Assembly (NCBI GenBank): GCA_001661245.1
Contig: KV454014.1
Coordinates: 877,606-897,605, forward strand
DNA length: 20,000 bases
From: Pachysolen tannophilus NRRL Y-2460
Taxonomy: Eukaryota
Direction of reading: 5' to 3'
Made by a program: the position numbers and the translations under genes. Under the pieces are notes generated by a model, which was not told the origin of the DNA, did no database searches, and worked only from the letters and a program-made list of their open reading frames with translations. Positions 1 to 19,379 of the stretch are shown here, in pieces; the first letter of the stretch is position 1; each line of letters begins with the position of its first letter.

Positions 1-3000
1 ATTGGATATTATAAGGACCTGTAACATCCAAAGCCTTACCAATTTTGGCAGTCGCTTCAACAATTCTATTGACAGTTTCTGGATCTAAATCCTGCGGTGG
101 AACAATTAAAGTTGCATCACCAGAGTGAACACCTGCATTCTCAACATGTTCTGAGACAACGTGCATGATTAATTTTCCATTCTTGGCAACAGCATCCATT
201 TCAATCTCCTTCGCATTTTCAATATATTTAGTAATAACAACAGGATAATCAGGTGAAACTTCAACTGCTTGCGATAAGTAAGAGGCTAAATCATCTCTTG
301 AATAAACAGTATTCATGGCTGCACCTGACAAAACATATGATGGACGAACTAATACCGGGTATCCGACATTGTTTGCAAAGTCTTCAGCTTCTTCGAAGGA
401 GGTTAATTCTTTCCAGGCAGGTTGGTCAACTCCAATCTTATCTAACATACGAGAGAATTTATATCTGTTCTCTGCGGAATCGATCATTTCCGGTGAAGTA
501 CCCATTATTTTAACATTTTGACGATGTAATGATAAAGCAATGTTATTTGAAGTTTGACCTCCCATAGAAATAATAACACCAGCAGATTTTTCAAGCTCAT
601 AGATATCCAATACTCTTTCCAAATTAATGGTCTCAAAATAAAGACGATCTGCTTCATCATAATCAGTAGAAACTGTTTCAGGGTTGTAGTTTATCATAAT
701 TGTCTTAGTACCTAAAGCTCTTAAAGTTCTAACTGCTGTAACAGCACACCAATCAAACTCAACTGAGGATCCAATACGGTAAACACCTGAACCCAAAATA
801 ATAACACCATGATCGTTGAACTCTACATCATGCGAGTCAGCATTGTATGTTAAGTAAAGATAGTTGGTATATGCAGGAAATTCAGCGGCAACCGTATCAA
901 TTTGTTTTACAAATGGAAGGATACCAGCATCCTGTCTTAATCTTCTGATAGCAACTTCATTAGAATTTAAGAATTTGGCAATTTGTCTGTCTTCAAAACC
1001 TAATTGTTTTGCTTGTCTCAAAATCGAAACAGGAAGTTTCTCTTTACTACCAAACTCAGCAATTTTGAAACCAAATTTAATTAAACCATCTAATTTGTTT
1101 AAGAACCATCTATCAATATTTGTCATCTTGTGGATTTTTTCAACAGAATAACCAGAAGATAAAGCATTTGCAATGGCGAAAAGACGTTGATCAGATGGTG
1201 TTTGTAATTCCGAATCAATATCAATTGACATTAAAGCTTCAGTCTTGTTAAAACCAATATTTTGATAATCGGTTGACCTTATAGCCTTTTGGATAGCCTC
1301 TTCAAAAGTACGACCAATACTCATGACTTCACCAACAGATTTCATTGAAGAAGATAATAAGTTTGAAACTCTTGTGAATTTTTTCAAATCCCATCTTGGA
1401 ATTTTAACAACAACATAATCCAAAGATGGTTCAAAACAAGCACAAGTAACTTTTGTAACTGAGTTTCTAATTTCGTTTAACGGAATATTCAAACCTAACT
1501 TAGCAGCAGTATATGCCAATGGGTAACCTGTTGCCTTTGAGGCCAATGCTGAAGAACGTGACAAACGTGCATTAACTTCAATAATACAATATTCCTTAGA
1601 ATGCGGGTTCAATGCATATTGAATGTTACATTCACCAACGACACCCAAATGACGAATAACGTTAACAGCAGTTGTACGTAACATATTATAGTCTTCATCG
1701 GACAAAGTTTGAGATGGAGCAACAACTATAGAGTCACCTGTATGGATACCTAATGGATCAAAGTTTTCCATATTACAGACGGTAATACAGTTATCGAAAG
1801 CATCACGAACAACTTCATATTCAATTTCCTTCCATCCTTTCATTGATCTTTCAACTAAAACTTGAGGAGAAGTTGCAAATGCTATATTACATAAATTAGT
1901 TAATTCAGTTTCATTTTCAGCGAAACCGGATCCCAAACCACCTAATGCATAAGCAGCACGAACAATGACTGGGAATCCAATGTCCTTCACAGCGTCTAAT
2001 GCTTCTTGTAAAGAAGAAGCAGCTTTGGATTTAGCACATTTCTCCCCAATTTCTTCCATTGATCTAGCAAATAACTCTCTATCTTCAGTGGTAATAATAG
2101 TATCAATTGGAGTACCCAAAACCTTAACTCCTAAAGATTCAAATTCATCTTTTAATTTGATACCAACGCCTAAAGCGGTTTGACCACCAAAAGTAACATA
2201 AATTGCATCTGGTTTTTCATGTCTAATAACTTTTCTTACGAAATCAGCATTAACTGGTAAGAAATAAACCTTATCAGCCAAACCTTTTGAAGTTTGTATG
2301 GTTGCAATATTTGGATTAATTAATATTGTATAAATTCCTTCTTCTTTCAAAGCTTTAATTGCTTGAGATCCTGAATAGTCGAATTCACCAGCTTGACCAA
2401 TTGATAAACCACCTGAACCTAAGACTAAAACTTTTTTAACTTTTTCTCTTGGATGTTTAGCCAAATTTTCTTTGATGTCACCTCCTGGGAAAGAGACAGC
2501 TTTTAAAGCACGGCTTGATTTAAATTCTAAGACAGAATTAATGAAAACATCAAATAAAAATTCGGTATCTCTTGGACCTGGAGTTGATTCTGGATGGAAT
2601 TGAACTGAGAAAAAAGGTTTTCCAGTGTGGTAAATACCTTCATTCGAACCATCATTTGAATTAACAAAAAGTTCTTTCCAACCAGGTTGTAAAGTGGTGG
2701 TATCAACAGCATAACCATGATTTTGAGAAGTGATATAACATCTACCAGAAATACTGGATGTACATGGAATATTGTGACCTCTATTTCCGAATTTCAATTT
2801 AATTGTTGATGCACCAGAAGCTCTAGCTAATAATTGATGACCTAAACAAATACCAAAAACTGGTGTTTTTTCTTCTTCCAAGACTTTCTTCAATCTCTCT
2901 ATAGTTGAAGTCATTACTGATGGATCACCTGGACCATTGGAAACAAATAACCCATCATATTCTTCCGTGGTAAAATCATAATCCCAAGGAACAACTTTTA

Positions 3001-3736
3001 ATTCAACACCACGTCTAACAAAACATCTAATTTGATTAAATTTCATACCAACATCAATTGCAATAATTCTAATAATTTTACCATCTGGTCCTTTTTTCAA
3101 ATTAGCAATTGGTTTATAAAGAACTGGTGATTTTGTTGAAACTTTTGCAACCAAATTTTTAACATTTGGATCATCAAATTCTGGTATTTCAAAATTTTCT
3201 TTCCAAGTATTAGGATTTAAAGCATCTTCTAATTTTGAATCTTTTTTTTGTAAAGCCAATCTACCTAAAGTTGAACCTTTTTCTCTTAATCTTTTTGTTA
3301 AATTTCTTGTATCAACACCATAAATTGCAGGAACACCTTGTTCTTGTAACCATTGACCTAATGAAGATTTAGCTAAATAATGAGAATATTCTTCTGTATA
3401 ATGAGCAACAACTAAACCAGCAATATGAATTTTAGAAGATTCAAAATATTTTGGTAACTCCGGTACATCTTCATCTCTCAATTCACGATCAGGAACACCA
3501 TAATTTCCAACCAATGGATATGTGATGACCAAGATTTGACCTTCATAAGAAGGATCTGTAATTGCTTCTGGATAACCAACCATACCTGTTTGGAAAACTA
3601 ACTCACCAGCAGTTGAAACATTGGCACCAAAGGAATAACCTTGCAATGCAAGACCATCCTGAGTTTCCAAAGTCATCAACCTTTGGCCAGTAGATTCATT
3701 TGGTGGTGTAATTGGAGCCGACAAACTTGAAGCCAT
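1..3736 (-). CDS. URA2: Multifunctional pyrimidine biosynthesis protein Ura2 (CAD-like): GATase/CPS small domain fused to CPS large domain; 3' part runs off the window start
   Basis: Manual translation gives an uninterrupted frame of about 1245 codons from ATG 3736: [38 protein letters not shown]...[14 protein letters not shown]. It contains GATase motifs [10 protein letters not shown] and QFHPE fused in frame to CPS motifs [17 protein letters not shown] and [15 protein letters not shown]. The fusion separates it from CPA1/CPA2. Confidence 0.97.
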
Positions 3737-3839
3737 TATAATTTTTTATATGTTAAAAATGCAAAGAATAAATGAGAAACCAAAAAAAAAAAAAAATTAA
3801 ATTAAATTAAAAAAAAAACAAAAAGTATTAAGAATAGCG

Positions 3840-4122
3840 CTAAATCAATGAAAAAAATACATTAGAATCATTAGTTAGTTTATTGTTAATTATCAATTGA
3901 AAATTTAAGGTCATTGGCATGATTACAATATAACAAGGCAAGAAATCCGCATCATCTTTTCAAAATTAGAATAAAAGCAAGAATATTTCATTTTTTTTTT
4001 TTTACTCAAAAATTAAAACTTTATCAATTCTATCTCTCTTCTATCTTTCAAAATGAGCATCAAAACTAGCCTTCAATCGTTAACCGCCGTTCAAAAAAAC
4101 CTTTTCTTTTTTGTAAACTTAC
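3840..4122 (-). other. Spliceosomal intron in the URA2 5' UTR (283 nt)
   Basis: Minus strand: donor AAAG|GTAAGT at 4122, branch AACTAAC at 3880-3874, acceptor TTTAG ending at 3840. S. cerevisiae URA2 is known to have a 5'-UTR intron. Confidence 0.75.
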
Positions 4123-4520
4123 CTTTAACAAATATTTAAATAGCAAGAACGAAAACTAAAACAGAGGAAAAAAAAAAAAAATTTTTTTGTATGTGTCTTT
4201 TCTATCTATCAACAAAACTCAAAAATAATCTTTAATTCAATTTATAAAACAATTCCTGGAGAAATAATCGTTATACAAATTGGATTTAAATCAAGTTAGC
4301 AGTCAAGAATAAAAAATATATATATATAAAAAAAAAAATTTTTTTTTCTTTTGTATGTATTATTTTAATTTAATTTAGTGTTTTTTTTTTGTTTTTTCTT
4401 GTTATTAAAACTTTTTTCTTGTACCTTTAAACAAATGAAAAATTAATATGAACAGGCCCACTTCAGTTTAAAAGCAGCTTGGATCAAAGACAAAGACAAA
4501 CCAGAGTCCGATTACTTTTT

Positions 4521-4573
4521 GAAAGAAGAAGAGAGAGAAGAAGAGAGAGAGAGAGAGAGAAAGAAAGAAGAAA
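4521..4573. repeat. 53-nt pure purine tract, (GA)n/(GAA)n; pure pyrimidine on the URA2 sense strand
   Basis: Directly visible: gaaagaagaagagagagaagaagagagagagagagagagaaagaaagaagaaa. Confidence 0.95.
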
Positions 4574-4640
4574 TAAAATAAAAATAAAAAAAAAAAAAAT
4601 GAAAAAACGTTAAAATCTTGTTAAAGGTTTGAACTCAAAG

Positions 4641-4648
4641 TATTTATA
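4641..4648 (-). promoter_or_regulatory. Candidate TATA box for URA2
   Basis: Minus-strand TATAAATA (TATAWAWR consensus) upstream of the pyrimidine tract and the ATG-free leader. Confidence 0.5.
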
Positions 4649-4769
4649 TGAAAAAAAATTTTTTTTTGATGTAATGCAACCCAAATGACAACATAGATCG
4701 ATGTGGCTGGTGTATGGTATTAAACAAGTCGATGTGCATATGATTAGCCTTATATTACTTGATTCGGAT

Positions 4770-4830
4770 CTCATCTCATCTTTTTTCCAAGAGTTTAAAT
4801 GGTTATGGAAAAAAAAAATTTTTTTTTTCA
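4770..4830. promoter_or_regulatory. PAC-like (GATGAGATGAG) and RRPE-like (AAAATTTT) elements in the URA2/AIM11 divergent promoter
   Basis: ctcatctcatc at 4770-4780 gives two overlapping GATGAG cores on the minus strand. A-tract/T-tract junctions occur near 4810-4830 and 4650-4667. RRPE-like matches are common by chance in this composition. Confidence 0.35.
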
Positions 4831-5299
4831 TTAATACAAAAGACAATTAGTAAAAAAAAAGTTAGTTTATGCGCGGTAGCTGTAGCGGTAACTGTAGGGT
4901 CTCTCTTTTTTTTTTGAACAGATGCAGTTATAAAACTCTGTTTTTTTACACACTCAACGTCTACATATAGAAAAATTCTACTTGTTAAGTATGTCTTTGT
5001 ATTTATTTGTATATGTGTATGTGGCGTAGTAAAACCTAGTAAAACCCACCTTATTTAAATAAAGTGTAGTGTAAGTAGTGTATATATTAAGTATAGTGTG
5101 TTAAATATCAAATTGTCCCGATTCGGGTTTACTATGGAAAGAGAGTTTTTTTCCTTTAGTAGTAAAGTGTATGTCAATGTAATGTGTAATTGGTAAATTA
5201 ATTGTATTATAATATTGAAAAGATTAATATTATTATTATTATAATAATAATTATAATAACTTGTTAATTAATTGAAAGTAAAAATATTATAATAAAATC

Positions 5300-5868
5300 A
5301 TGGTAGAGACTTTAAGTTTGAACAAGTTTCTTGGAAGAAGAGATCCATCTGAGTTAAGTGATGAGGTGAAAAAATATAATGAGAGAAGATTCAAGCAAAT
5401 GGCTTTATTTTATGGGTGTACAGTTGCAACTTTTTTATGTTCAAAAATTTCACATAGAGGAGTTATTAGTAGAAGATGTAAGTTTATTTTTTTTTGCATT
5501 TATTTATCTTCAAAATTTTTAATACTAATTCTAATTTATTGATTATAAATTTTAATATTTATTTAGATGTACCAAATTATTACCAACATAATCATGTACC
5601 GCCGCCATTTTCATTTTATAGAGATGCTTTAACTGCAGTTACTCTTTCAACTTTGTTGGCAATAAGCACAACTTCGATGTTTGTTACTGGTTCATTCTGG
5701 TACCTTGATATTTCAAATTTTAAAGAATTTAGTTTTAGATTGAAAAAATATCTTGGTGGAGAAGAAAAAGAAACTGAATTAATGAAATTACCTTTAGATA
5801 AAGATTCAGAATCTATTCAAAATTCTATAAATGATTTCATAAATGATTATGCCAAAAATGGGAAATAA
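5300..5868 (+). CDS. AIM11: Aim11/Iai11-family small mitochondrial membrane protein, spliced join(5300..5477,5567..5868), 159 aa
   Basis: Splicing joins the two ORF-track fragments into ...YNERRFKQMALFYG...GVISRR-Y-VPNYYQHNHVPPPFSFYRDALTAVTLST...WYLDISNFKEFSFRLK, with two hydrophobic segments. This matches Aim11 as I recall it. S. cerevisiae AIM11 is also spliced and adjacent to TSC11. Confidence 0.88.
5478..5566 (+). other. Intron of AIM11-like gene (89 nt, phase 1)
   Basis: Donor GTAAGT at 5478, branch TACTAAT at 5523-5529, acceptor TTTAG ending at 5566. Splicing restores the frame (T+AT = Tyr). Confidence 0.9.
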
Positions 5869-6112
5869 TTCTAGTAAATCAATTACTTCAATAACTTCAA
5901 TAAATTTCCAATTAAGTATTTTAAATACTTAATTGAAATATATATCTTTGTATATATCTTTTATATAGGCATTTTTTTGTATATTTTTTATTTTTCACTA
6001 CAAATTAATTTTCATGATATACACCAAAAATTCTTGAAACTTTTTTTTTAAATTTTATCAATTATATATATATTTAAACCTTTTTAAATGAATAAATGAA
6101 ATCATAAGAATA

Positions 6113-6961
6113 ATGTCGGAATCAGTTGTGAAAAGAGATTATAATAAAATTTATGAAATACAACTTAGTAGATTTAATGCCAAATTTACTAATTATAATA
6201 AATTATATGCAGAAGAACAGCAATCCAGAAAATTGATAAATTTCTTATATTTAAGAAATAATGCTATATTATCCTTAATTGATAAAATATCAGATCTCTT
6301 GGGTGATTATCCAAATTATGATCATTTAAAAAATGATGGAGAATTACAGAAAATAAATAAAATTATTAATAATAATCCCAATTTAACACAAAAATTACTG
6401 CCCTTGATTAATTTAATACAAATTGAAAAAGATCAACTAAAAACAGGTGAAGAAAATATTATAAATGAAAAATATGAATCTTATTTAAAACTTCTTTCTA
6501 CTTCATCTCCAAGTTTCCCACTTTCTTGGAAGTTTGATGAACCGGTATATAGAAGTCCCAGTGAAGTTGGAGATGTAATTAATTCAAAACTGAGAAGGTC
6601 TTCACTTGATAATGCTTCCTCTTTAACAGGCGCTAACAGAAATGGAACTAACTTGGTGGTTACAAATGGTTCCAATGATAGCATTGTACTTAAACAAACA
6701 GATTTTTTAAAAGAAACTGATCCATGTTCAAAATTATCATGGTTGAAAAGAAATCATCCAAAGATTTTTAGCGAAGAATCATTATCATTTTCAGATATAA
6801 TCGATAATAATACTACAATTGCTGATAGTGACGATAATAATTTTCCTTCTAATTCTTCTTTTACAAATAATATTAATTCAAGTGGGAAAAGAAGGCGCGG
6901 TAATTCAATTGTAGATGATAATGATGGGAAATCAATTACTAAAAGAAAAAAATCTACTTGA
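6113..6961 (+). CDS. Probable INO80 chromatin-remodelling complex subunit, Iec3-like (syntenic with IES5), 282 aa
   Basis: The N-terminal helix YNKIYEIQLSRFNAKFTNYNKLYAEEQQSRKLINFLYLRNNAILSLI and the motif DPCSKLSWLKRNHPKIF resemble the two conserved Iec3 blocks as I recall them. The C-terminus has a bipartite NLS-like KRRR...KRKK. The ORF is solid; the family call is less certain. Confidence 0.68.
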   Translation: MSESVVKRDYNKIYEIQLSRFNAKFTNYNKLYAEEQQSRKLINFLYLRNNAILSLIDKISDLLGDYPNYDHLKNDGELQKINKIINNNPNLTQKLLPLINLIQIEKDQLKTGEENIINEKYESYLKLLSTSSPSFPLSWKFDEPVYRSPSEVGDVINSKLRRSSLDNASSLTGANRNGTNLVVTNGSNDSIVLKQTDFLKETDPCSKLSWLKRNHPKIFSEESLSFSDIIDNNTTIADSDDNNFPSNSSFTNNINSSGKRRRGNSIVDDNDGKSITKRKKST

Positions 6962-7255
6962 TTAATTTTTTTTTAAACCTTTTGTGTATTATTATATAAT
7001 ATGCTTTACTTGTTTCTATTATTTATATACATATATATGATTGAAAATAATTAAAGATTTGATTTGTTTACTTCATCACTTTTTTTTTTTCTTTTTTTCT
7101 TTTTTCTTTTTTGAAAAATGCTCTAATATCTCTTAATTCTCTTTCATACAAAATAAATAATAATACCCTCTCTAATACAAAAAAAATAAAAAAAAAAACA
7201 AAAAAAAACAATTATAACGATTTTTTTACCCTTACTTAAAAACTTTACTCTTAAC

Positions 7256-10200
7256 TCAATGATTGGCATTTTCAGCATCTTGTTGCTGCTGTTCTAACTT
7301 CAGTTTTTTCCTGTCACTCCTAATAATTATCTCCAATAATTTATTTGAATCAATAAAATCATTTAGTAAATACCGTCTAGTACTTAACTTGTATTTAAAA
7401 TTTTCAAATAATTTTAAAATAATTTTAAACAAAAATACTTTGTTTTTGTCACTTTTGAAGAAATTCACAAAATTAGCCTTCTCATTTTTCCTACTTCCAC
7501 TATATTTTAATCTATTCAAATTCGAAATAGATTTCGTAACCATTAAATGTGTCATTATATTTATCAAATTTTCATAAATTTCCTTAAAAATTATTAAATC
7601 CCGAGTATTGGTTTTGGTTAAAAGGGAAAGTTCATTATCCATAAATGAAGTTAAATTAGTGTAACTCTTGAATTTTTCCAAAGCAATAGAGTCAGTAACT
7701 GCATCATTTTTCGAACTACCATTTATTGCATTAAAATAAGTATTACTTGCTCCATATTCAAAATTGACATTTCCAAATGAATCAGACTGACCATCTTTTT
7801 CGACATCCTTCCCATCATCGTCAACCTCATTATGATTTATATTATCATCAAGTTTCTTAATATTATTTGCATCATTATCGAAAAAGCCTTCAAGCTCATT
7901 GGGTAAACAATATCCAATTGGATTCCCAGTAAAAGACAAAGTGGAACTCCAATTTAATTCGTCTAATATTTCCATACCTTGCTCTGTATTAGATATAAAT
8001 CCTAATACGTAAAAACAAGTACCTCTTAATGAGAAACATTCAGAATTATTCATAATTGTCATGACATCTTCAACAAAATTAACAGATTCTAAAAGCTGGA
8101 TACCATAAGTACTGGCACCTATATTTCCCAAACTCCATAAATAACCTTTTAAATGTAAAACATTCCAATATTCAGGATCTTCATTGCTATCATTTATAGA
8201 AGACTCAAACTTCTCGGAAATATAATCTTTTATAAATTTTGAAAATTTGACAAATAATCCTGAATTTACCAAGAGATTGACACCTTCTTCTGTTTTAACT
8301 AATTCCCCGAAAAAATGATCTGGCATCCGCCCCTTCTCTCCTTTTTCAATTTTCGGAATAATAACAAATTTATATTTATCAGGATCAAATAATTCGTTGA
8401 ATAACAAATTTTCAACATCTATTACATACTGGAAAATTTTACCATTAATCCAATTTTCCATTTCTGTTTCAACAAAATTATTATCCATCAAGTATTTAAA
8501 TCCAACAGGGATTGACAAAAATTTTATTAACAACGATTGTCCAATTTTTTGTAAATTTTCAAAACAAGGTTTTAATTTGATAACGTTTAAAATGTTTTCC
8601 TTTGAATGATCACAATATGTATCTAAAATTTGAGCTGCAGTAGTACAAACGGTCTTATCCGGATCATATAACTGATCTATTAATAACGTTATTACAAATT
8701 CCTCAAAGGATGGATCATCATTGGTATTCAATAGCTTTTCTAAATGCTTTGTTGTAAAAATTCTCATATTTTTATCTGATGTGGTTAAAATCTTAGATAG
8801 TATAATTCTTAAATGACTTGGATATTTAAAATCCATTTCTTTTATTATAAGCTTAACAATATCATCTCTTCCACTTTTCCTTTCACTTATGTGATAGAAC
8901 ATACTGAAAATTCTCCATTGCTCTAACATTTTTAGCCCACTAAGGTCTTTTGATAAGACACCCAACATAGTGAAATAACCAGAGTTCAGAGTAGCTTCCA
9001 ACTTTTGTTTTGAAAATAAAGAATCCGTAGCTGTTATTCCACTATATGGATCAACCTGTGCAATACATTCAGCAATTTGAGGTAACAATTTATTTTCACT
9101 TAAAAACTTCACACCTTCTTCACTTGCCAATAACATTTTGAAAAGTTCACACCCAACTCTAATATATTTAGCACTCAACCTTGATTTTTTAGAAACTTTT
9201 GAAAATCTAAATTTGAAAGGTCTATAAAAAGACATTAATCTTTTTACTATCTTTGTTGTTTTCACTGTATCTTCTAATCTCTTTCCATCTGTTAGAGGCC
9301 CTTGACATAATTCTATTATCAAATCCCAATTCCATGATTCATATTGCTTTGTCTGCAATATTTTTGTATCCATTAATAATTTTCTAAATTCTGTATCATC
9401 AAATTCATATTTTAACATTGCTTTAATATCTTTTGGTAAATCGTTAAAGTGAGCAAGAGGTTTGACCTGCATACCTAATGAAACTCTTCCTTTATTTAAC
9501 CTCCTAGTGACTTTTTCAATTTGAAATGAAACAGATGAAGGAATTTTGATATTCAAATTATTAGAAATATTTCTTTCAACAAGTAATGGTAATAAAGCAT
9601 CAAATGAATCAATTTTATCAATGAAATCTCTTGGTAATAAATTTGAAGATAAATTTAAAATTTCTATAAGTAAAAAAATAGCTTTTCTTCTGTTTAAATC
9701 ATCAGTTCCATCAGTTATGATTGATGCTAATTTTTCCATTATTCCACAATTTAATAAACATGTTAAGAATAGTGAAGTATAATGATTAATAATTCTCAAT
9801 TCTTTTTCTGGTTCACTTGGCGCAATATTTGGCTTATGTGGTACCTGATTGGTAGTTGACAGATCAGATTTTGATTGATTAATATTTCTTTTACCAAATA
9901 TAGTTATTGATTGAATCCATGGTAAAGTTCTAATTCTTAAAATATCGAAAAAAATATCCATCAAGATATCTCTTAAATTTGGGATATCAAATATTAAACA
10001 ATTAATTAATTCTTTTAAAGGATTGAAATGATTTTGTGAAAATGAAATGAAACCTGGCCAAGTTTTCAAAAAAACTGTTAACATAAATGCATTATTTTGT
10101 AATTTTTCAATATTTGAATGAGTTTTCATCAGGTAATCAGTAAATGGAGAAATTAATAAATAAATGTTAAGTTGATTGAAAAGAAATTTTCTACTTTCTG

Positions 10201-11479
10201 CATGATCTAATAATCTTATTAATGATAATAAACAACATGAGGAAACACCATATGGACCTTCTGTTAAACATTGAAAAATGATTCTTAATGCATCAGCTTT
10301 AAAGGATAATTCTGGATTTAATAAAGATATTTCACATATTGTTTCTATTGAAATTAATCTTAATTTACCTTCTATATTTTCAGCTACTGCTATAATTGCC
10401 TTTATCAATCCAATTGTTAAAAAAATAATTCCATTTGGTATTTCTATTATTTTTCTTATAAATTTTAAAGCTTGTTCTGTTTCTGTTAAACATTTATTAT
10501 CCATTGATAAACTTATTATTATAAAAGTTTCTAATCTTATTCTAATCATCAAATCAATTGTATCTGCATCTCCTAATAAATATCTTGCTATTCTATAACC
10601 ACAAGCTCTAACTTCAACACAAGGATTTGATAATAGTATTTGAATAACATGACCAAATGCATGTAATACTAAGTCTTCTTTTAAATAAGTATGATGTTCC
10701 AATAAGATTACCAAATCATTTGATCTTTGTATTAAATAATCTGCTTCTCTATTTTTTTCACTTAAAGACAGTAATATATCTCCAACTAACCAAGTTGGAC
10801 TTTCTGTCACATGCTCGTCATTGCGTAAATCAAACATACTTGAATCATCATCATCATCATCATCATCATTTGAAGAAGAAGAAGTAGTAGAATCAGATAA
10901 TACAGACACTAGTGTTAAGCTTCTTTTCCTTGTTGAAGCCAAACTTGTATTTTTCGATTCTTGATTTTTCATTTTTTTAACTGTTTCTAATTTTTTTTCA
11001 ATCAGAGAAATATTTTTATCTGTTTCATGCAATCGAGATTCCATCTTACTCTTTTGTGAAAAATTATTAATATTATTATTGTTATTATAATGCAGTAAAC
11101 TACCCATATAACTAGTATCATTACTTTCTGCAGCTACTACATTATCAGCTTGAATTAATTTTTCTATAGCTTCTTTTATCCTTTTCTGTTTCAGTAATTC
11201 ATTTTGTAAACTATGCAAACTAGCAGTTGATTTCTGGAAAAATTGATATTTCGGTGAAAGTTCACTTGAATTAGATGAACTTTCTCTTCTCTTTGCTACC
11301 ACTATATTTTGTATTGCTGTATTATTAATACTATTAAGTCTTGTTAAATTACTATTACTCCCGCCATTACCATTATAACCGCCGTTACCTGTATTATTAT
11401 TATTATTATTATTATTATTTATAACGTTATTGTTGCTGCTCGGATTGCCATTACCACTATTACCAACGTTATCCGCCAT
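7256..11479 (-). CDS. TSC11: TORC2 subunit Tsc11/Avo3 (Rictor/Ste20 ortholog), 1407 aa
   Basis: Asn-rich N-terminus, HR1-like coiled coil, and Rictor motifs EVRACGYRIARY, EQALKFIR, WNWDLI, KRLMSFYRPFKFRFS, LLIDQLYDPD, HFFGELVKTEEG, LWSLGNIG and SLRGTCFYVLGFIS. Confidence 0.96.
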   Translation of the reverse strand: MADNVGNSGNGNPSSNNNVINNNNNNNNNTGNGGYNGNGGSNSNLTRLNSINNTAIQNIVVAKRRESSSNSSELSPKYQFFQKSTASLHSLQNELLKQKRIKEAIEKLIQADNVVAAESNDTSYMGSLLHYNNNNNINNFSQKSKMESRLHETDKNISLIEKKLETVKKMKNQESKNTSLASTRKRSLTLVSVLSDSTTSSSSNDDDDDDDDSSMFDLRNDEHVTESPTWLVGDILLSLSEKNREADYLIQRSNDLVILLEHHTYLKEDLVLHAFGHVIQILLSNPCVEVRACGYRIARYLLGDADTIDLMIRIRLETFIIISLSMDNKCLTETEQALKFIRKIIEIPNGIIFLTIGLIKAIIAVAENIEGKLRLISIETICEISLLNPELSFKADALRIIFQCLTEGPYGVSSCCLLSLIRLLDHAESRKFLFNQLNIYLLISPFTDYLMKTHSNIEKLQNNAFMLTVFLKTWPGFISFSQNHFNPLKELINCLIFDIPNLRDILMDIFFDILRIRTLPWIQSITIFGKRNINQSKSDLSTTNQVPHKPNIAPSEPEKELRIINHYTSLFLTCLLNCGIMEKLASIITDGTDDLNRRKAIFLLIEILNLSSNLLPRDFIDKIDSFDALLPLLVERNISNNLNIKIPSSVSFQIEKVTRRLNKGRVSLGMQVKPLAHFNDLPKDIKAMLKYEFDDTEFRKLLMDTKILQTKQYESWNWDLIIELCQGPLTDGKRLEDTVKTTKIVKRLMSFYRPFKFRFSKVSKKSRLSAKYIRVGCELFKMLLASEEGVKFLSENKLLPQIAECIAQVDPYSGITATDSLFSKQKLEATLNSGYFTMLGVLSKDLSGLKMLEQWRIFSMFYHISERKSGRDDIVKLIIKEMDFKYPSHLRIILSKILTTSDKNMRIFTTKHLEKLLNTNDDPSFEEFVITLLIDQLYDPDKTVCTTAAQILDTYCDHSKENILNVIKLKPCFENLQKIGQSLLIKFLSIPVGFKYLMDNNFVETEMENWINGKIFQYVIDVENLLFNELFDPDKYKFVIIPKIEKGEKGRMPDHFFGELVKTEEGVNLLVNSGLFVKFSKFIKDYISEKFESSINDSNEDPEYWNVLHLKGYLWSLGNIGASTYGIQLLESVNFVEDVMTIMNNSECFSLRGTCFYVLGFISNTEQGMEILDELNWSSTLSFTGNPIGYCLPNELEGFFDNDANNIKKLDDNINHNEVDDDGKDVEKDGQSDSFGNVNFEYGASNTYFNAINGSSKNDAVTDSIALEKFKSYTNLTSFMDNELSLLTKTNTRDLIIFKEIYENLINIMTHLMVTKSISNLNRLKYSGSRKNEKANFVNFFKSDKNKVFLFKIILKLFENFKYKLSTRRYLLNDFIDSNKLLEIIIRSDRKKLKLEQQQQDAENANH

Positions 11480-12565: not shown

Positions 12566-14869
12566 ATGGTTCAATCATCTGTTTTAGGTTTCCCACGTAT
12601 TGGTGCTAATAGAGAATTAAAGAAAGTTACTGAAGCTTATTGGGCTGGTAAAGTTGACAAAGAAGAATTATTTAAAGTTGGTAAAGAATTGAGAGCAAAG
12701 AATTGGAAATTACAAAAAGATGCAGGTGTTGATATTATTGCTTCCAATGATTTCTCATACTATGATCAAGTTTTAGATTTATCCTTACTGTTTAACGTTA
12801 TTCCAGCAAGATATACCAAGTACCAATTAGAGCCAGTTGATGTTTTATTTGCTATGGGTAGAGGTTTACAAAGAAAGGCAACAGAAACTACTCCAGCAGT
12901 TGATGTTCCAGCTTGTGAGATGGTCAAATGGTTTGATTCTAATTACCATTACGTTAGACCAACTTTTTCTCATACTACAGAATTTAAATTAAATAGTTCA
13001 AAACTGGTTGATGAATATTTAGAAGCTAAAGATTTAGGTGTTGAAACAAGACCAGTTGTTGTTGGACCTGTCTCTTATTTATACTTGGGTAAGGCTGATA
13101 AAGACTCCTTGGATTTGGAACCAATTACTTTATTGGAAAAAATCTTACCTGTTTATGCTGAATTATTATCAAAATTAGCTTCTGCTGGTGCCACTTCTGT
13201 TCAAATTGATGAACCAGTCTTGGTTTTAGATTTACCAGAAAAAGTTCAAGCTGCTTATAAGACTGCTTACGAATTTTTATCTAAAAAAGAAGGTTTACCA
13301 AAATTGATCTTAACCACTTATTTCGGTGATGTTAGACCAAACTTGGATGCTATCAAAAATTTACCAGTTGCTGGTTTCCATTTTGATTTTGTAAGAGTTC
13401 CAGAACAATTGGATGATGCTATTGCCTCATTAAGTGATGATCAAACTTTATCCGTTGGTATCATCAATGGTAGAAACATTTGGAAAGCTGATTTCTCAAA
13501 AGCTATTACCTTGGTTGAAAAAGCTATTGAAAAATTAGGTAAAGATAGAGTTATTGTTGCTACTTCTTCTTCATTATTACATACTCCTGTTGATTTAGAA
13601 AATGAAACAAAATTAGATGCTGAAATTAAAGATTGGTTTTCATTTGCTACTCAAAAATTATCAGAAGTTGTAACAATTGCTAAAGCTGTTTCAGGTGAAG
13701 ATGTTAAAGCTCAATTAGAAGCTAATGAAGCCTCTGTTAAATCAAGATCAACTTCATCAATCACAAACGATGCTGCTGTTGAAAAAAGAGTTGGTGCTAT
13801 TGATGAAAAATTATCTACAAGAGCTGCTCCATTCCCAGAAAGATTAGCTGAACAAAAGAAGGAATTCAATTTACCATTATTCCCAACTACTACAATTGGT
13901 TCTTTCCCACAAACAAAGGATATTAGAATCAATAGAAACAAATTTGCTAAAGGTCAAATTTCTGCTGAAGAATATGAAACTTTTATCAACTCTGAAATTG
14001 AAAAAGTTGTTAGATTCCAAGAACAAATTGGTTTAGATGTTTTAGTCCATGGTGAACCAGAAAGAAATGATATGGTTCAATATTTCGGTGAACAATTAAA
14101 AGGTTATGCTTTCACCACTAACGGTTGGGTTCAATCTTATGGTTCAAGATATGTTAGACCTCCAATTATTGTTGGTGATGTCTCTAGACCAGCTCCAATG
14201 TCTGTTAAAGAATCAGTCTATGCTCAATCTTTAACTGAAAAACCAATGAAAGGTATGTTAACTGGTCCAGTCACTTGTTTGAGATGGTCTTTCCCAAGAG
14301 ATGATGTTTCACAAGAACTCCAAGCTTTACAATTAGGTTTGGCCTTAAGAGATGAAGTCCAAGATTTGGAAGCTGCTGGTATCAATGTTATTCAAGTTGA
14401 TGAACCTGCTATTAGAGAAGGTTTACCATTAAGAGCCGGTAAGGAAAGATCAGATTATTTGAAATGGGCTGCTCAATCATTCAGAGTTGCAACTTCAGGT
14501 GTCGCTAACAAGACCCAAATCCATTCTCATTTCTGTTATTCCGATTTGGATCCAAACCATATCAAGGCCTTGGATGCTGATGTTGTCTCTATTGAATTTT
14601 CAAAGAAAGATGATCCAAAGTATATCTCGGAATTCTCCGACTATCCAAACCATATTGGTTTAGGTTTATTCGATATCCATTCTCCACGTATTCCATCAAC
14701 CGAGGAATTCATTGCTAGAATCGGTGAAATCTTAAAAGTTTACCCAGCTGAAAACTTTTGGGTCAACCCAGATTGTGGTTTAAAAACTAGAGGTTGGGAA
14801 GAAACTAAGGCTCAATTGACCAATATGGTTGCTGCAGCTAAGCATTTCAGAGAAAAATACTCTAAATAA
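12566..14869 (+). CDS. MET6: Cobalamin-independent methionine synthase, 767 aa
   Basis: MVQSSVLGFPRIG, KWFDSNYHY, PTTTIGSFPQ, HGEPERNDMVQYFGE, WVQSYGSRYVRPP, zinc-ligand motifs HSHFCY and WVNPDCGLKTR. Strong high-expression codon bias. Confidence 0.99.
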   Translation: MVQSSVLGFPRIGANRELKKVTEAYWAGKVDKEELFKVGKELRAKNWKLQKDAGVDIIASNDFSYYDQVLDLSLLFNVIPARYTKYQLEPVDVLFAMGRGLQRKATETTPAVDVPACEMVKWFDSNYHYVRPTFSHTTEFKLNSSKLVDEYLEAKDLGVETRPVVVGPVSYLYLGKADKDSLDLEPITLLEKILPVYAELLSKLASAGATSVQIDEPVLVLDLPEKVQAAYKTAYEFLSKKEGLPKLILTTYFGDVRPNLDAIKNLPVAGFHFDFVRVPEQLDDAIASLSDDQTLSVGIINGRNIWKADFSKAITLVEKAIEKLGKDRVIVATSSSLLHTPVDLENETKLDAEIKDWFSFATQKLSEVVTIAKAVSGEDVKAQLEANEASVKSRSTSSITNDAAVEKRVGAIDEKLSTRAAPFPERLAEQKKEFNLPLFPTTTIGSFPQTKDIRINRNKFAKGQISAEEYETFINSEIEKVVRFQEQIGLDVLVHGEPERNDMVQYFGEQLKGYAFTTNGWVQSYGSRYVRPPIIVGDVSRPAPMSVKESVYAQSLTEKPMKGMLTGPVTCLRWSFPRDDVSQELQALQLGLALRDEVQDLEAAGINVIQVDEPAIREGLPLRAGKERSDYLKWAAQSFRVATSGVANKTQIHSHFCYSDLDPNHIKALDADVVSIEFSKKDDPKYISEFSDYPNHIGLGLFDIHSPRIPSTEEFIARIGEILKVYPAENFWVNPDCGLKTRGWEETKAQLTNMVAAAKHFREKYSK

Positions 14870-15463: not shown

Positions 15464-16803
15464 ATGCAATCCGATGAAGGTATAAATGATTTTGATAATC
15501 TTATTAGTGAATTTGTCGCAGTAACGGGTTCATCAACTGGAGCTGCTCAAAAATTTTTAGAGGAAAATAATTTTAATTTGAGCGTAAGTTAATTTTATTT
15601 TATTGAATTGAAATGGATTGGTTTTATATCCAGCTTTTGGTTTTTTTCTTAAAAAAAATTTCAACTTTGTTCTTGATGTACTAACTAAAATATTTATATA
15701 TATATATGAAAATAATATTATAGGATGCTATTCAAGATTATTATGAACCTCATGAAGAGCAGGAAAAGAATATTGATCAAGTTCCAAGACCCAGTGCAAC
15801 TAGTTTCCAACCTCAAAATCAAAATCCTGGTACTTCTATGACGTCAGGATTTGGGTCAACATCAGCTTCTCAAAGATCTATACCGAAGACAAATAAATCA
15901 AAACCTAAACCTAAATTTGAAACATTCCAACAATTGGTCAATGGTAAAGATGATGATGATGATGATGAAGATACAAACTTCTTCACTGGAGGAGAAAAAT
16001 CGGCATTAGAAGTTGAAGATCCAAATGCAAATGATCCTTTACATGCAATTCAAGATTTGTTGAAAAAAGCTGAAAAGACAGGTCAAGAATTAAGGAATGA
16101 AGGATCTTCAACAGCACAACCAGTGAAAAAATTTAAAGGTACTGGTTATAAATTGGGTGATAGTGAAAATCCTTCAGTTGAAATACCAGATAATAGTTTT
16201 AGAAAACCAGAAAAGGCTACAAGAAACATCACTTTTTGGAAAGATGGTTTTACTGTTGGTGATGGAGAATTGTTTCGTTACGATAATCCTAAAAATAGTA
16301 GTTATATCCGTGAATTAAACAGCGGTAGAGCTCCATTACTGTTATTAAACGTTAAACCGGGTCAAGATGTTGATGTTAATATTACAAAGAAATTAGACGA
16401 AGAATATAAACCACAAAAGAAAAAAATACACCATTTTGAAGGAACAGGACATAGATTAGGCTCACCTGTTCCGGGTGATTTTTCCCTAAGTCAATCACAA
16501 GAATCTGAAACACAACAGGCGACCCCACTAGAACAAAAGGAAGAGCAACAGCCAAAAAAAGATGATGAAGGTGAAGGTGATGCAGTAATTCAATTTAGAC
16601 TTGCAGATGGTAAGAAAATTGTTCATCGTTTCAATTCTTCAGATCCAGTTCAAGTTGTATATGATTTCGTTGAAAATGAAACTGCGTCTTCTAGATCGTT
16701 TTTCTTATCATTCGCTTTCCCAGTAAAACCAATTGAAGATAAGGAAAAAAGTATCAAAGAATCAGGTTTAATCGGATCTGTTGTTGTTCAAAGATGGAAC
16801 TAA
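15464..16803 (+). CDS. SHP1: Cdc48/p97 adaptor Shp1/Ubx1 (p47; UBA-SEP-UBX), spliced join(15464..15583,15724..16803), 399 aa
   Basis: Exon 1 MQSDEGINDFDNLISEFVAVTGSSTGAAQKFLEENNFNLS joined to DAIQDYYE forms a UBA-like domain. Also present: FFTGGEKSAL, two SHP boxes (FKGTGYKLG, FEGTGHRLG), a SEP domain (ITFWKDGF...GRAPL) and a UBX domain (IQFRLADG...AFP...VVVQRW). Confidence 0.95.
15584..15723 (+). other. Intron of SHP1 (140 nt, phase 0)
   Basis: GTAAGT at 15584, canonical TACTAAC at 15679-15685, TAG at 15721-15723. Exon 2 is in frame with ORF 15838..16803. Confidence 0.93.
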
Positions 16804-18362: not shown

Positions 18363-19379
18363 ATGGTGATTATTAGGCCAAGGTTCAGTTTCACTTTCTC
18401 CAGGAAAGTGTCAACCATAATCAACTCTATGACAATTGGTAGACCGGCGGAGATGGGTCCAAACATATTTCGCTTAACGCATGCTGATGCAAAAGAGTTA
18501 CCAGTTGAGAAAGTCGTTGATTTATACTTCAAGAAATATTTGCCTATCTCTTCATGTCTTCCAACCCCTTTAAATAGACCTCAAGAACCATTAATATTTA
18601 TTCCGGGTTTATTTGGATCGACAAAGATGTATAAAAAGGAAATTCAAAGATTATGTAACTTGTTGAATATCCCAGTGTACGCAGTAGATTTAAGAAGTCA
18701 TGGCCAAAGCAAATATGCCTTACCGTTAAGTTTTAATGCATATGTTTCTGATATGGTGGCATTTATGAAACAACAAGGTATTGAGAGACTGAATGTTTCT
18801 GGATTTTCATTGGGAGGCAAAGTTGCAATGGCATTAGCATTAAAACATCCAGAACTAGTTTCAAAAACTTTAGTCGTTGATATTTCACCGGCAACACAAA
18901 TTCATTTAAGTCCAATGATTGATTCATTTATTAAAGGTTTAACCCATGTTGTTGAAGATGCTGGTATTAATTCAAAAGATAAAGATTGGTTTGAACAAGC
19001 AGACAACGCATTAGAAAAACATGTTCCTCATAAACCTACAAGAAGATACTTGTTGAATACTAATTTACTAAGAGAGCATCCAGTTAAGAAAGATGGTAAA
19101 GTTCATTTGAAATGTGCACTATATCATTTCAAATCTTCTGAAATTCTTGGCTGGCCAGAAGATGAATTTAAAGGTAAAACATATTTAGGTCCTGTTTTAT
19201 TTCTCAAAGCAAAACACTCTGATTTTATTCAAGATTCTCATATGGATCAAATAGAGCAATATTTTCCAAATTACGAAATTAGGGAAGTAAATACCTACCA
19301 TTTAATTCCGAATGAGAGACCAGATTTTCTCATTCAAAATTTTGCAAATTTTATTGGAAAGAAAGAAAGTTCATTTTAA
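18363..19379 (+). CDS. EAT1: Eat1-like ethanol acetyltransferase/esterase (alpha/beta-hydrolase, ABHD11/Imo32-related), probably mitochondrial, 338 aa
   Basis: KELPVEKVVDL...EPLIFIPGLFGS...PVYAVDLRSHGQSKYALP, nucleophile elbow GFSLGGK, Asp in VVDISP and His in TYHLIPNERP. As recalled, these fit Eat1 (GYSLGAK, HFILNERP) better than Imo32 (GHSMG). The N-terminus is rich in Arg, Ser and Phe and lacks acidic residues. Confidence 0.8.
   Translation: MVIIRPRFSFTFSRKVSTIINSMTIGRPAEMGPNIFRLTHADAKELPVEKVVDLYFKKYLPISSCLPTPLNRPQEPLIFIPGLFGSTKMYKKEIQRLCNLLNIPVYAVDLRSHGQSKYALPLSFNAYVSDMVAFMKQQGIERLNVSGFSLGGKVAMALALKHPELVSKTLVVDISPATQIHLSPMIDSFIKGLTHVVEDAGINSKDKDWFEQADNALEKHVPHKPTRRYLLNTNLLREHPVKKDGKVHLKCALYHFKSSEILGWPEDEFKGKTYLGPVLFLKAKHSDFIQDSHMDQIEQYFPNYEIREVNTYHLIPNERPDFLIQNFANFIGKKESSF

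What the first reader, a model, noticed from the sequence alone, without database searches (positions are those of the whole stretch)
6113..6961. Iec3-like protein in the IES5 slot: possible link between two INO80 subunits regarded as lineage-specific
Seen: the ORF lies tail-to-tail with TSC11, between AIM11 and MET6. Known: in S. cerevisiae the gene tail-to-tail with TSC11 (YER093C) is IES5 (YER092W), a small INO80 subunit of the Nhp10 module. Iec3 is described as an INO80 subunit of fission yeast and filamentous fungi. From recalled sequences, this protein has Iec3-type blocks (Y...F...LY.EEQ...L...N..IL.L and SWLKRNHP.IF), and its first ~130 aa loosely follow the Ies5 layout (long helix, then ELQK...NNNPNL...INLI). 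Inference: Ies5 is a truncated, diverged Iec3 ortholog and this protein is an intermediate.
Basis: partly seen in the sequence, partly recalled or inferred. Interest (0 to 1): 0.75.

Follow-up and report, generated by a model that had tools for sequence, protein, structure and literature searches.

The report
Iec3-like gene in IES5's slot
This yeast gene encodes a small helical protein that resembles the fission-yeast INO80 subunit Iec3 and lies exactly where baker's yeast keeps IES5, which suggests that two chromatin-remodeller subunits treated as lineage-specific are one diverged gene family.

Summary
The ORF at 6113-6961 (+, 282 aa) is real and lies as described: AIM11(+), ORF(+), TSC11(-), MET6(+). 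I fetched the S. cerevisiae and Torulaspora delbrueckii loci. They hold the same four genes, with IES5 tail-to-tail with TSC11, and differ from the window only by an inversion of the two-gene block. Positional orthology with IES5 is therefore well supported.

The protein belongs to a budding-yeast family, of which 36 sequences were collected. The N-terminal helix of 17 of these 36 matches Pfam Ino80_Iec3 in one register. All matches are below Pfam's cut-off (best E 2e-4, 21.8 bits against 27), and the window's own protein does not match. A protein-language-model search puts both this protein (0.92) and S. cerevisiae Ies5 (0.84) nearest the same Iec3 clusters.

Direct sequence similarity to Ies5 is weak:
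- Profile-profile comparison finds nothing (P 0.31-0.44), and no family member matches Pfam IES5.
- Only T. delbrueckii Ies5 aligns collinearly above shuffles (2-4 of 1500).

The unification is probably right (about 0.7) but is not proven by sequence. The claim that this protein is an "intermediate" is not supported: it is a full-length, divergent Iec3-like form. I found no printed statement of the link. The whole genome could not be searched for a second IES5.

The parts
6113..6961 (+). Whole ORF, 282 aa: Iec3-like protein and positional counterpart of IES5
   Evidence: Identical to database protein P0005 when CTG is read as Ala. 35 relatives collected.
6137..6304 (+). Residues 9-64: long N-terminal helix (DY.K.YE...F......K....E...R......N......), the part that corresponds to Pfam Ino80_Iec3 in relatives
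   Evidence: AF2 helix 10-64, pLDDT 88-98. Relatives match PF14612 positions about 3-56 of 70 here. Conserved columns D9, Y10, F21, E35, R39.
6317..6442 (+). Residues 69-110: two helices joined at Pro89 (GELQKINKIINNNPNLTQKL.PLINL), the family block RI..II...P.L...L.PLL
   Evidence: AF2 H69-87 and H89-110, pLDDT 82-87. P89, L91 and L95 are nearly invariant in A4. Ies5 has the same helix-Pro-helix at P77.
6503..6718 (+). Residues 131-202: S/N-rich spacer of low confidence, much longer than in relatives
   Evidence: pLDDT below 50 over most of it. It appears as an insertion relative to the other members in alignments A1 and A2.
6719..6775 (+). Residues 203-221: Trp block (ETDPCSKLSWLKRNHPKIF), the family block E.NP....W.RRN...L; absent from Ies5
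   Evidence: E, P and W are invariant in alignment A1. W is nearly invariant in A4. Both Ies5 proteins end before it.
6887..6952 (+). Residues 259-280: two basic patches (KRRR, KRKK), probably a nuclear localisation signal (inferred)
   Evidence: Read from the sequence. Relatives end in KRRKK-type tails.
7256..11479 (-). TSC11 (RICTOR homolog), the convergent neighbour that anchors the synteny
5300..5868 (+). AIM11 with one intron (about 5478-5566), flank of the conserved four-gene block
12566..14869 (+). MET6, the other flank of the conserved four-gene block

Best explanation
The ORF encodes this yeast's member of one diverged family that includes Iec3 (fission yeast, filamentous fungi) and Ies5 (Saccharomyces-type yeasts). 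The family is a small, mostly helical, non-catalytic subunit of the HMG-box (Nhp10/Nht1) module at the N-terminus of the INO80 chromatin remodeller. Shown here: the gene is real and conserved; it occupies the IES5 position inside a conserved AIM11/TSC11/MET6 block; and its family matches the Iec3 N-terminal domain consistently but below threshold. Inferred: (1) the 55-residue N-terminal helix and the helix-Pro-helix behind it dock the protein onto the HMG-box subunit and the Ino80 N-terminal region; (2) the Trp block makes a second contact; (3) the basic tail takes the protein into the nucleus; (4) the Saccharomycetaceae lineage kept roughly the part corresponding to residues 17-140 and lost the Trp block and tail, giving the 110-125-aa Ies5.
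For: Synteny. In the window the order is AIM11(+), ORF(+), TSC11(-), MET6(+). In S. cerevisiae L006 it is AIM11(+), TSC11(+), IES5(-), MET6(+). In T. delbrueckii L008 it is MET6(-), IES5(+), TSC11(-). The gene content is the same, with one small gene convergent with TSC11 in each.

Iec3 link. PF14612 is matched by 17 of 36 family members at E<=10, with a best E of 2.1e-4, and the runner-up family is matched by 2 of 36. 10 of 34 members match at E<=0.05, all in one register. The language-model search of this protein gives Iec3 clusters as top hits (0.92, 208 of 256 shared features).

Ies5 link. The language-model search with S. cerevisiae Ies5 returns the same three clusters (0.84, 0.78, 0.77). 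T. delbrueckii Ies5 aligns over residues 1-100 collinearly with the family core, from RFN to the SY motif. The best Smith-Waterman score over the 36 members is 67, reached by 2 of 1500 global shuffles and 4 of 1500 window shuffles. 11 of 36 members have z>=2.5, against 0 of 36 for the reversed sequence. HMMER and hhalign choose the same register, although without significance.

Predicted layout. This protein has H10-64, H69-87 and a helix starting at Pro89; Ies5 has H6-57, H70-75 and a helix starting at Pro77.

Function in the literature (passages read). In S. pombe, loss of iec3 or nht1 removes Nht1, Iec3 and Iec5 from INO80 (PMC7896557). In S. cerevisiae, ies5 and nhp10 deletions give comparable changes (PMC13181614). 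The C. thermophilum INO80 N-terminal construct was co-expressed with Ies1, HMG, Iec3, ZnF and FHA subunits (PMC9733932).
Against: The window's own protein has no Pfam match to PF14612, PF24244 or PF17335. All PF14612 matches in the family are below the curated cut-off (15.5-21.8 bits against 27), and 19 of 36 members have none. No member matches PF24244 or PF17335 at E<=10, and Ies5 does not match PF14612 at E<=10. hhalign gives P 0.31 (A2 against the Ies5 pair) and 0.44 (A4 against T. delbrueckii Ies5), with probabilities of 0.1-0.2%. The family HMM score on Ies5 is reached by 79 of 5000 (S. cerevisiae) and 363 of 5000 (T. delbrueckii) shuffles. For S. cerevisiae Ies5 the best pairwise score is reached by 679 of 1500 shuffles. 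BLASTP with composition adjustment gives E 0.006 for the best of 72 pairs, before any correction, and 3.9 for the second-best. Language-model scores below 0.9 are only leads by the tool's own calibration. A layout of one long helix plus short helices is not specific. No true Iec3 sequence could be fetched, so no profile-profile test against Iec3 was run.
Confidence: 0.7

Rival explanations
1. Non-orthologous occupancy. The family is Iec3-like, but IES5 of Saccharomycetaceae is an unrelated gene that arose or was inserted in the same intergenic slot after the Iec3-like gene was lost. The shared position would then be coincidence.
For: Profile methods find no significant Ies5 similarity. S. cerevisiae Ies5 is indistinguishable from shuffles in pairwise tests. 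Pfam keeps PF17335 and PF14612 as separate families, and neither matches across.
Against: It would need two unrelated small helical proteins, both linked to the HMG-box module of INO80, to sit convergent with TSC11 inside the same four-gene block. T. delbrueckii Ies5 aligns collinearly above shuffles. Ies5's nearest language-model clusters, among 7.7 million, are Iec3 clusters.
Confidence: 0.13
2. The family is not related to Iec3 or to INO80 at all. It is a lineage-restricted nuclear coiled-coil protein of another function, and the Pfam and language-model signals reflect helical, charged composition.
For: Every PF14612 match is sub-threshold, and the window protein has none. No PF24244 match. 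No solved structure or fold match was found.
Against: One family out of 24,736 is matched by 17 of 36 members in one register, while other helical families are matched by at most 2. The best single E of 2.1e-4 already accounts for the size of the library. The language-model score is 0.92, with all ten best family-bearing hits in one family.
Confidence: 0.1
3. The family is the counterpart of another Nhp10-module subunit (for example Ies3, which has a similar length), and Ies5 is a separate paralog or an unrelated gene.
For: The family's length (186-282 aa) is nearer to the recalled length of Ies3 (about 250 aa) than to Ies5 (110-125 aa). No Ies3 sequence was available to test.
Against: The synteny is with IES5, not IES3. 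The collinear similarity is to T. delbrueckii Ies5.
Confidence: 0.05

Closest known systems
Iec3 (INO80 complex subunit 3) of Schizosaccharomyces pombe and filamentous ascomycetes; Pfam PF14612 Ino80_Iec3 plus PF24244 Iec3-like_M
   Same: A small fungal protein whose N-terminal long helix matches the Ino80_Iec3 profile in relatives. It is the nearest language-model cluster. The length class is similar (cluster representatives of 249-370 aa).
   Different: Matches are below Pfam's cut-off, and the window protein itself has none. No match to the Iec3-like middle-region model. Presence in INO80 is untested.
Ies5 (YER092W) of Saccharomyces cerevisiae and Torulaspora delbrueckii; Pfam PF17335 IES5
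   Same: Same chromosomal slot, convergent with TSC11 inside the AIM11/TSC11/MET6 block. Same predicted layout of a helix of about 50 residues, a loop, and helix-Pro-helix. There is a weak collinear similarity of T. delbrueckii Ies5 to family members. Ies5 shares the same nearest language-model clusters.
   Different: Ies5 is 110-125 aa against 282 aa. It lacks the Trp block and the basic tail. No family member matches PF17335, and hhalign is not significant.

Membership tests
Iec3 (Pfam PF14612 Ino80_Iec3) | Match to PF14612 at or above the gathering score (27 bits) | tested here: not met
   P0001 has no match at E<=10. The best family member scores 21.8 bits, E 2.1e-4. 17 of 36 members match at E<=10 and 10 of 34 at E<=0.05, all in one register. 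The match is consistent but sub-threshold.
Iec3 (Pfam PF24244 Iec3-like_M) | Match to the Iec3-like middle-region model | tested here: not met
   0 of 36 members at E<=10 (it is not among the 25 of 27 matched families that the call listed, all of which from the third on have one member).
Iec3 | Profile-profile similarity to bona fide Iec3 sequences | not testable with these tools
   The three word-indexed searches and the one full scan reached only budding-yeast relatives. There is no Iec3 in the PDB sequence set.
Iec3 / Ies5 | Physical subunit of the INO80 complex, dependent on the HMG-box subunit | not testable with these tools
   Needs a pull-down. Partner sequences from this genome are not available, because the genome is not held.
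Ies5 (Pfam PF17335 IES5) | Match to PF17335 | tested here: not met
   0 of 36 members at E<=10. The true Ies5 proteins score E 2.7e-43 and 2.7e-44.
Ies5 | Genomic position: convergent with TSC11, next to MET6 and AIM11 | tested here: met
   Window compared with S. cerevisiae L006/L009 and T. delbrueckii L008.
Ies5 | Significant sequence or profile similarity to Ies5 | tested here: inconclusive
   hhalign P 0.31 and 0.44. HMM score reached by 79 of 5000 and 363 of 5000 shuffles. Family-wise Smith-Waterman maximum reached by 2-4 of 1500 shuffles for T. delbrueckii but by 648-679 of 1500 for S. cerevisiae.
Ies5 | Only copy in the genome (no separate IES5 elsewhere) | not testable with these tools
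   The whole genome is not held. Within the window, none of 144 frames resembles Ies5 (best E 0.44).

The most novel reading that the evidence does not exclude
Ies5 and Iec3 are one orthologous family. The HMG-box module of INO80, usually called species-specific, then has a conserved pair (Nhp10/Nht1 with Ies5/Iec3) that dates back at least to the ancestor of Ascomycota. Saccharomycetaceae shortened the protein by dropping the C-terminal Trp block and basic tail, so results on S. pombe Iec3 and S. cerevisiae Ies5 can be carried over from one to the other.
Probability: 0.7. Interest if true: 0.5.

Novelty: new member of a known kind. Interest (0 to 1): 0.45.

Why it matters
Papers on INO80 still describe the Nhp10 module as species-specific (PMC9543228, passage read). 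A comparative proteomics paper lists IES5 and IEC3 each as having no orthologue in the other yeast (PMC2614481, table read). If the two are one family, genetic and biochemical results would transfer between the two model yeasts. Examples are the mutual dependence of Nht1 and Iec3 and the recruitment of Iec5 in S. pombe, and the similar effects of ies5 and nhp10 deletions in S. cerevisiae. Structural models of the unresolved N-terminal module could use a much deeper alignment, and the Trp block lost in Saccharomyces would become a defined element to test. This is a modest evolutionary unification, not a new kind of system. Curated orthologue tables that I could not consult may already hold it.

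Tried and rejected
- Whole-genome search for PF14612 or IES5 in the window's own assembly: the genome is not held.
- Records behind the metagenome loci: not held.
- Metagenome scan with the TSC11 C-terminal domains: 26 pattern matches, none confirmed.
- PDB by sequence, with P0001, the family profile and Ies5: only chance-level rows, and no INO80 chain.
- Foldseek against the PDB with both AF2 models: no match at E<=0.001, and the top rows are unrelated helical chains.
- Profile searches stopped at CTG-clade and Pichia-type relatives and never reached Iec3 or Ies5.
- A 128-aa ORF in L002 (7405-7791) was the best non-self phmmer hit of Ies5 (E 0.058 among 265 ORFs). It has no Pfam IES5 match and no TSC11 neighbour, so I dropped it as chance.
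- Six of the nine MET6 loci (L001-L005, L007) hold neither TSC11 nor a family member within the DNA held. I did not annotate them further.
- Earlier notes of this scan: nothing relevant.
- Complex prediction was not used, because no partner sequence (Nhp10, Ies3, Ino80 N-terminus) was available.
- Literature: 3 papers hold both 'Ies5' and 'Iec3', 10 hold 'Iec3' and 'INO80', 5 hold 'Ies5', 'pombe' and 'ortholog', and none holds the Pfam accessions. In the passages I read, none states that the two are homologous.

Full report
What is in the window. Under the standard code the window holds eight ORFs of 80 aa or more. Pfam identifies the following:
- a URA2-type carbamoyl-phosphate synthase fragment (2-3736, -);
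- TSC11/RICTOR (7256-11479, -; RICTOR_N E 3e-111);
- MET6 (12566-14869, +);
- a SEP/UBX protein (15838-16803, +);
- an alpha/beta hydrolase (18363-19379, +).
AIM11 lies at 5300-5868 (+) with one intron, read. Its first exon matches the ORF upstream of TSC11 in the S. cerevisiae locus. The target ORF, 6113-6961 (+), gives 282 aa. It is convergent with TSC11, with 294 bp between the stop codons.

The gene is real and has a family. A full HMMER scan of 1.84 billion representatives found a database twin and three relatives (E 5e-6 to 7e-4). The twin equals the ORF when CTG is read as Ala. Two profile rounds then gave 16 and 26 proteins. Those that carry a name are hypothetical proteins of Metschnikowia and Sungouiella. 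Thirty-six sequences were aligned (A4; 19-27% identity to the window protein). The family shares four features:
- an N-terminal block DY.KIYE...RFN...SQKLF.TEK.QRQTLY.YKRRNNALLDLL;
- a block RI..II...P.L...L.PLL;
- a block SYNVNL...IPE..NDELD..E.NPQDTEMW.RRNY.HLV;
- a basic tail.
The window protein has all four, plus a long S/N-rich insertion before the Trp block.

Is it Iec3-like? The window protein itself matches no relevant Pfam family. In the family, PF14612 Ino80_Iec3 is matched by 10 of 17 members at E<=1 and by 17 of 36 at E<=10. Of the 34 members listed individually (all except P0001 and P0007), 10 match at E<=0.05. The match is always profile positions about 3-56 of 70 against the N-terminal helix, at 15.5-21.8 bits, below the curated 27. 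No other family is matched by more than 2 of 36 members, and PF24244 (the Iec3-like middle region) is matched by none. The language-model search puts the protein nearest to clusters in which 94-100% of members carry PF14612 and PF24244 (score 0.92, 208 of 256 features). I read this as a true but diverged relationship of the N-terminal domain. It does not meet Pfam's own membership criterion, and I could not obtain any true Iec3 sequence for a profile-profile test.

Is the slot the IES5 slot? I back-translated a MET6 peptide of the window and scanned the metagenome contigs, which gave nine loci. All nine hold MET6, and three also hold TSC11.
- L006 and L009 carry AIM11(+), TSC11(+), a 125-aa ORF (-) and MET6(+).
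- L008 carries MET6(-), a 110-aa ORF (+) and TSC11(-).
By exact look-up these ORFs are IES5_YEAST and T. delbrueckii Ies5p, and both match Pfam IES5 at E 1e-43. Compared with S. cerevisiae, the window has the same four genes, with the two-gene block [small gene, TSC11] inverted between AIM11 and MET6. This is direct evidence for positional orthology.

Is Ies5 similar in sequence? Mostly not.
- No family member matches PF17335, and Ies5 does not match PF14612.
- hhalign gives P 0.31 and 0.44.
- The family HMM gives nominal p-values of 8e-4 and 0.011. Shuffles reach those scores 79 of 5000 and 363 of 5000 times.
- In pairwise Smith-Waterman tests, 16 of 72 family-Ies5 pairs are reached by at most 15 of 300 shuffles, all but one of the top 15 with T. 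delbrueckii Ies5, with z up to 6.3.
- For T. delbrueckii, 11 of 36 members have z>=2.5, against 0 of 36 for the reversed sequence. For S. cerevisiae it is 0 of 36.
- Family-wise, the T. delbrueckii maximum of 67 is reached by 2 of 1500 global shuffles and 4 of 1500 window-12 shuffles. The S. cerevisiae maximum is reached by 679 and 648 of 1500.
- BLASTP with composition adjustment gives E 0.006 for the best pair, uncorrected for the choice among 72, and 3.9 for the next.
The alignments are collinear over nearly all of T. delbrueckii Ies5, from the RFN motif to the SY motif. HMMER and hhalign pick the same register. The similarity is suggestive, not conclusive.

Independent hints. The language-model search with S. 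cerevisiae Ies5 returns, as its three best clusters, three of the clusters listed for the window protein (0.84 with 168 shared features, 0.78, 0.77). By the tool's calibration, scores below 0.9 are only leads. Still, it is not expected by chance that the leads fall on the one family predicted in advance. AF2 predicts similar layouts:
- window protein: H10-64 at pLDDT above 88, then H69-87, then H89-110 starting at a proline;
- Ies5: H6-57, then H70-75, then H77-95 starting at a proline.
This layout is too simple to count for much, and Foldseek finds nothing for either model.

How it probably works. In S. pombe, loss of iec3 or nht1 removes Nht1, Iec3 and Iec5 from INO80 (PMC7896557, passages). 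In S. cerevisiae, ies5 and nhp10 deletions change the INO80 network alike (PMC13181614, passages). The C. thermophilum INO80 N-terminal construct was co-expressed with Ies1, an HMG subunit, Iec3, ZnF and FHA subunits (PMC9733932, methods passage). I therefore infer that this protein is the helical partner of the HMG-box subunit in the N-terminal, DNA-sensing module of INO80. The N-terminal helix would be the docking element, the Trp block a second contact that Ies5 has lost, and the basic tail a nuclear signal. None of this was tested here.

The window protein is not an intermediate. It is the longest family member and among the most divergent. It shows no measurable similarity of its own to Ies5 (phmmer E 8-10 among 144 frames) or to PF14612. 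Its value lies in its position, not its sequence.

Novelty. The 2008 comparative proteomics paper lists IES5 and IEC3 as having no orthologues in the other yeast. Later papers still call the module species-specific. The searches found no statement of homology. Curated orthologue databases could not be consulted. I rate this gene a new member of a known kind, with a probable (about 0.7) but unproven unification of two named subunits.

Noticed in passing
window 6398-6400 and 6590-6592 (residues 96 and 160 of the ORF); window 12788-12790 (MET6 residue 75): The database twin of the ORF reads both CTG codons as Ala and equals the NCBI table 26 translation letter for letter. This points to a Pachysolen-type CUG-Ala yeast. 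Yet one of the two CTG codons in MET6 sits at a Leu that is conserved in 4 of 4 other yeast MET6 genes compared. CTG is rare here: 2, 8 and 2 codons in MET6, TSC11 and the ORF.
   Followed up: partly
window 5478-5566: AIM11 carries a short intron with GTAAGT at its 5' end, a TACTAAT branch-like site and a TAG 3' end. Exon 2 continues the frame to the stop at 5868 (read).
   Followed up: partly
window 6113-11479 compared with L006 4361-9118: Relative to S. cerevisiae, the two-gene block (small gene plus TSC11) is inverted between AIM11 and MET6. As a result MET6 faces TSC11's promoter here, whereas it faces IES5's promoter in S. cerevisiae.
   Followed up: yes
L008 2607-2610: In the T. delbrueckii locus, the IES5 ORF (2278-2610, +) and the TSC11 ORF (2607-6350, -) overlap by 4 bases at their 3' ends.
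   Followed up: no
window 11300-11479 (TSC11 N-terminus): TSC11 starts with long Asn/Gly/Ser-rich low-complexity runs and has an Asp run near residue 205. The first 200 or so residues do not align with S. cerevisiae TSC11.
   Followed up: no
L001, L003, L007, L004, L002/L005: Six of the nine yeast-like MET6 loci from metagenomes have no TSC11 and no Ies5 or Iec3-like ORF within the DNA held. The MET6 side of the block is therefore not conserved in all yeasts.
   Followed up: partly
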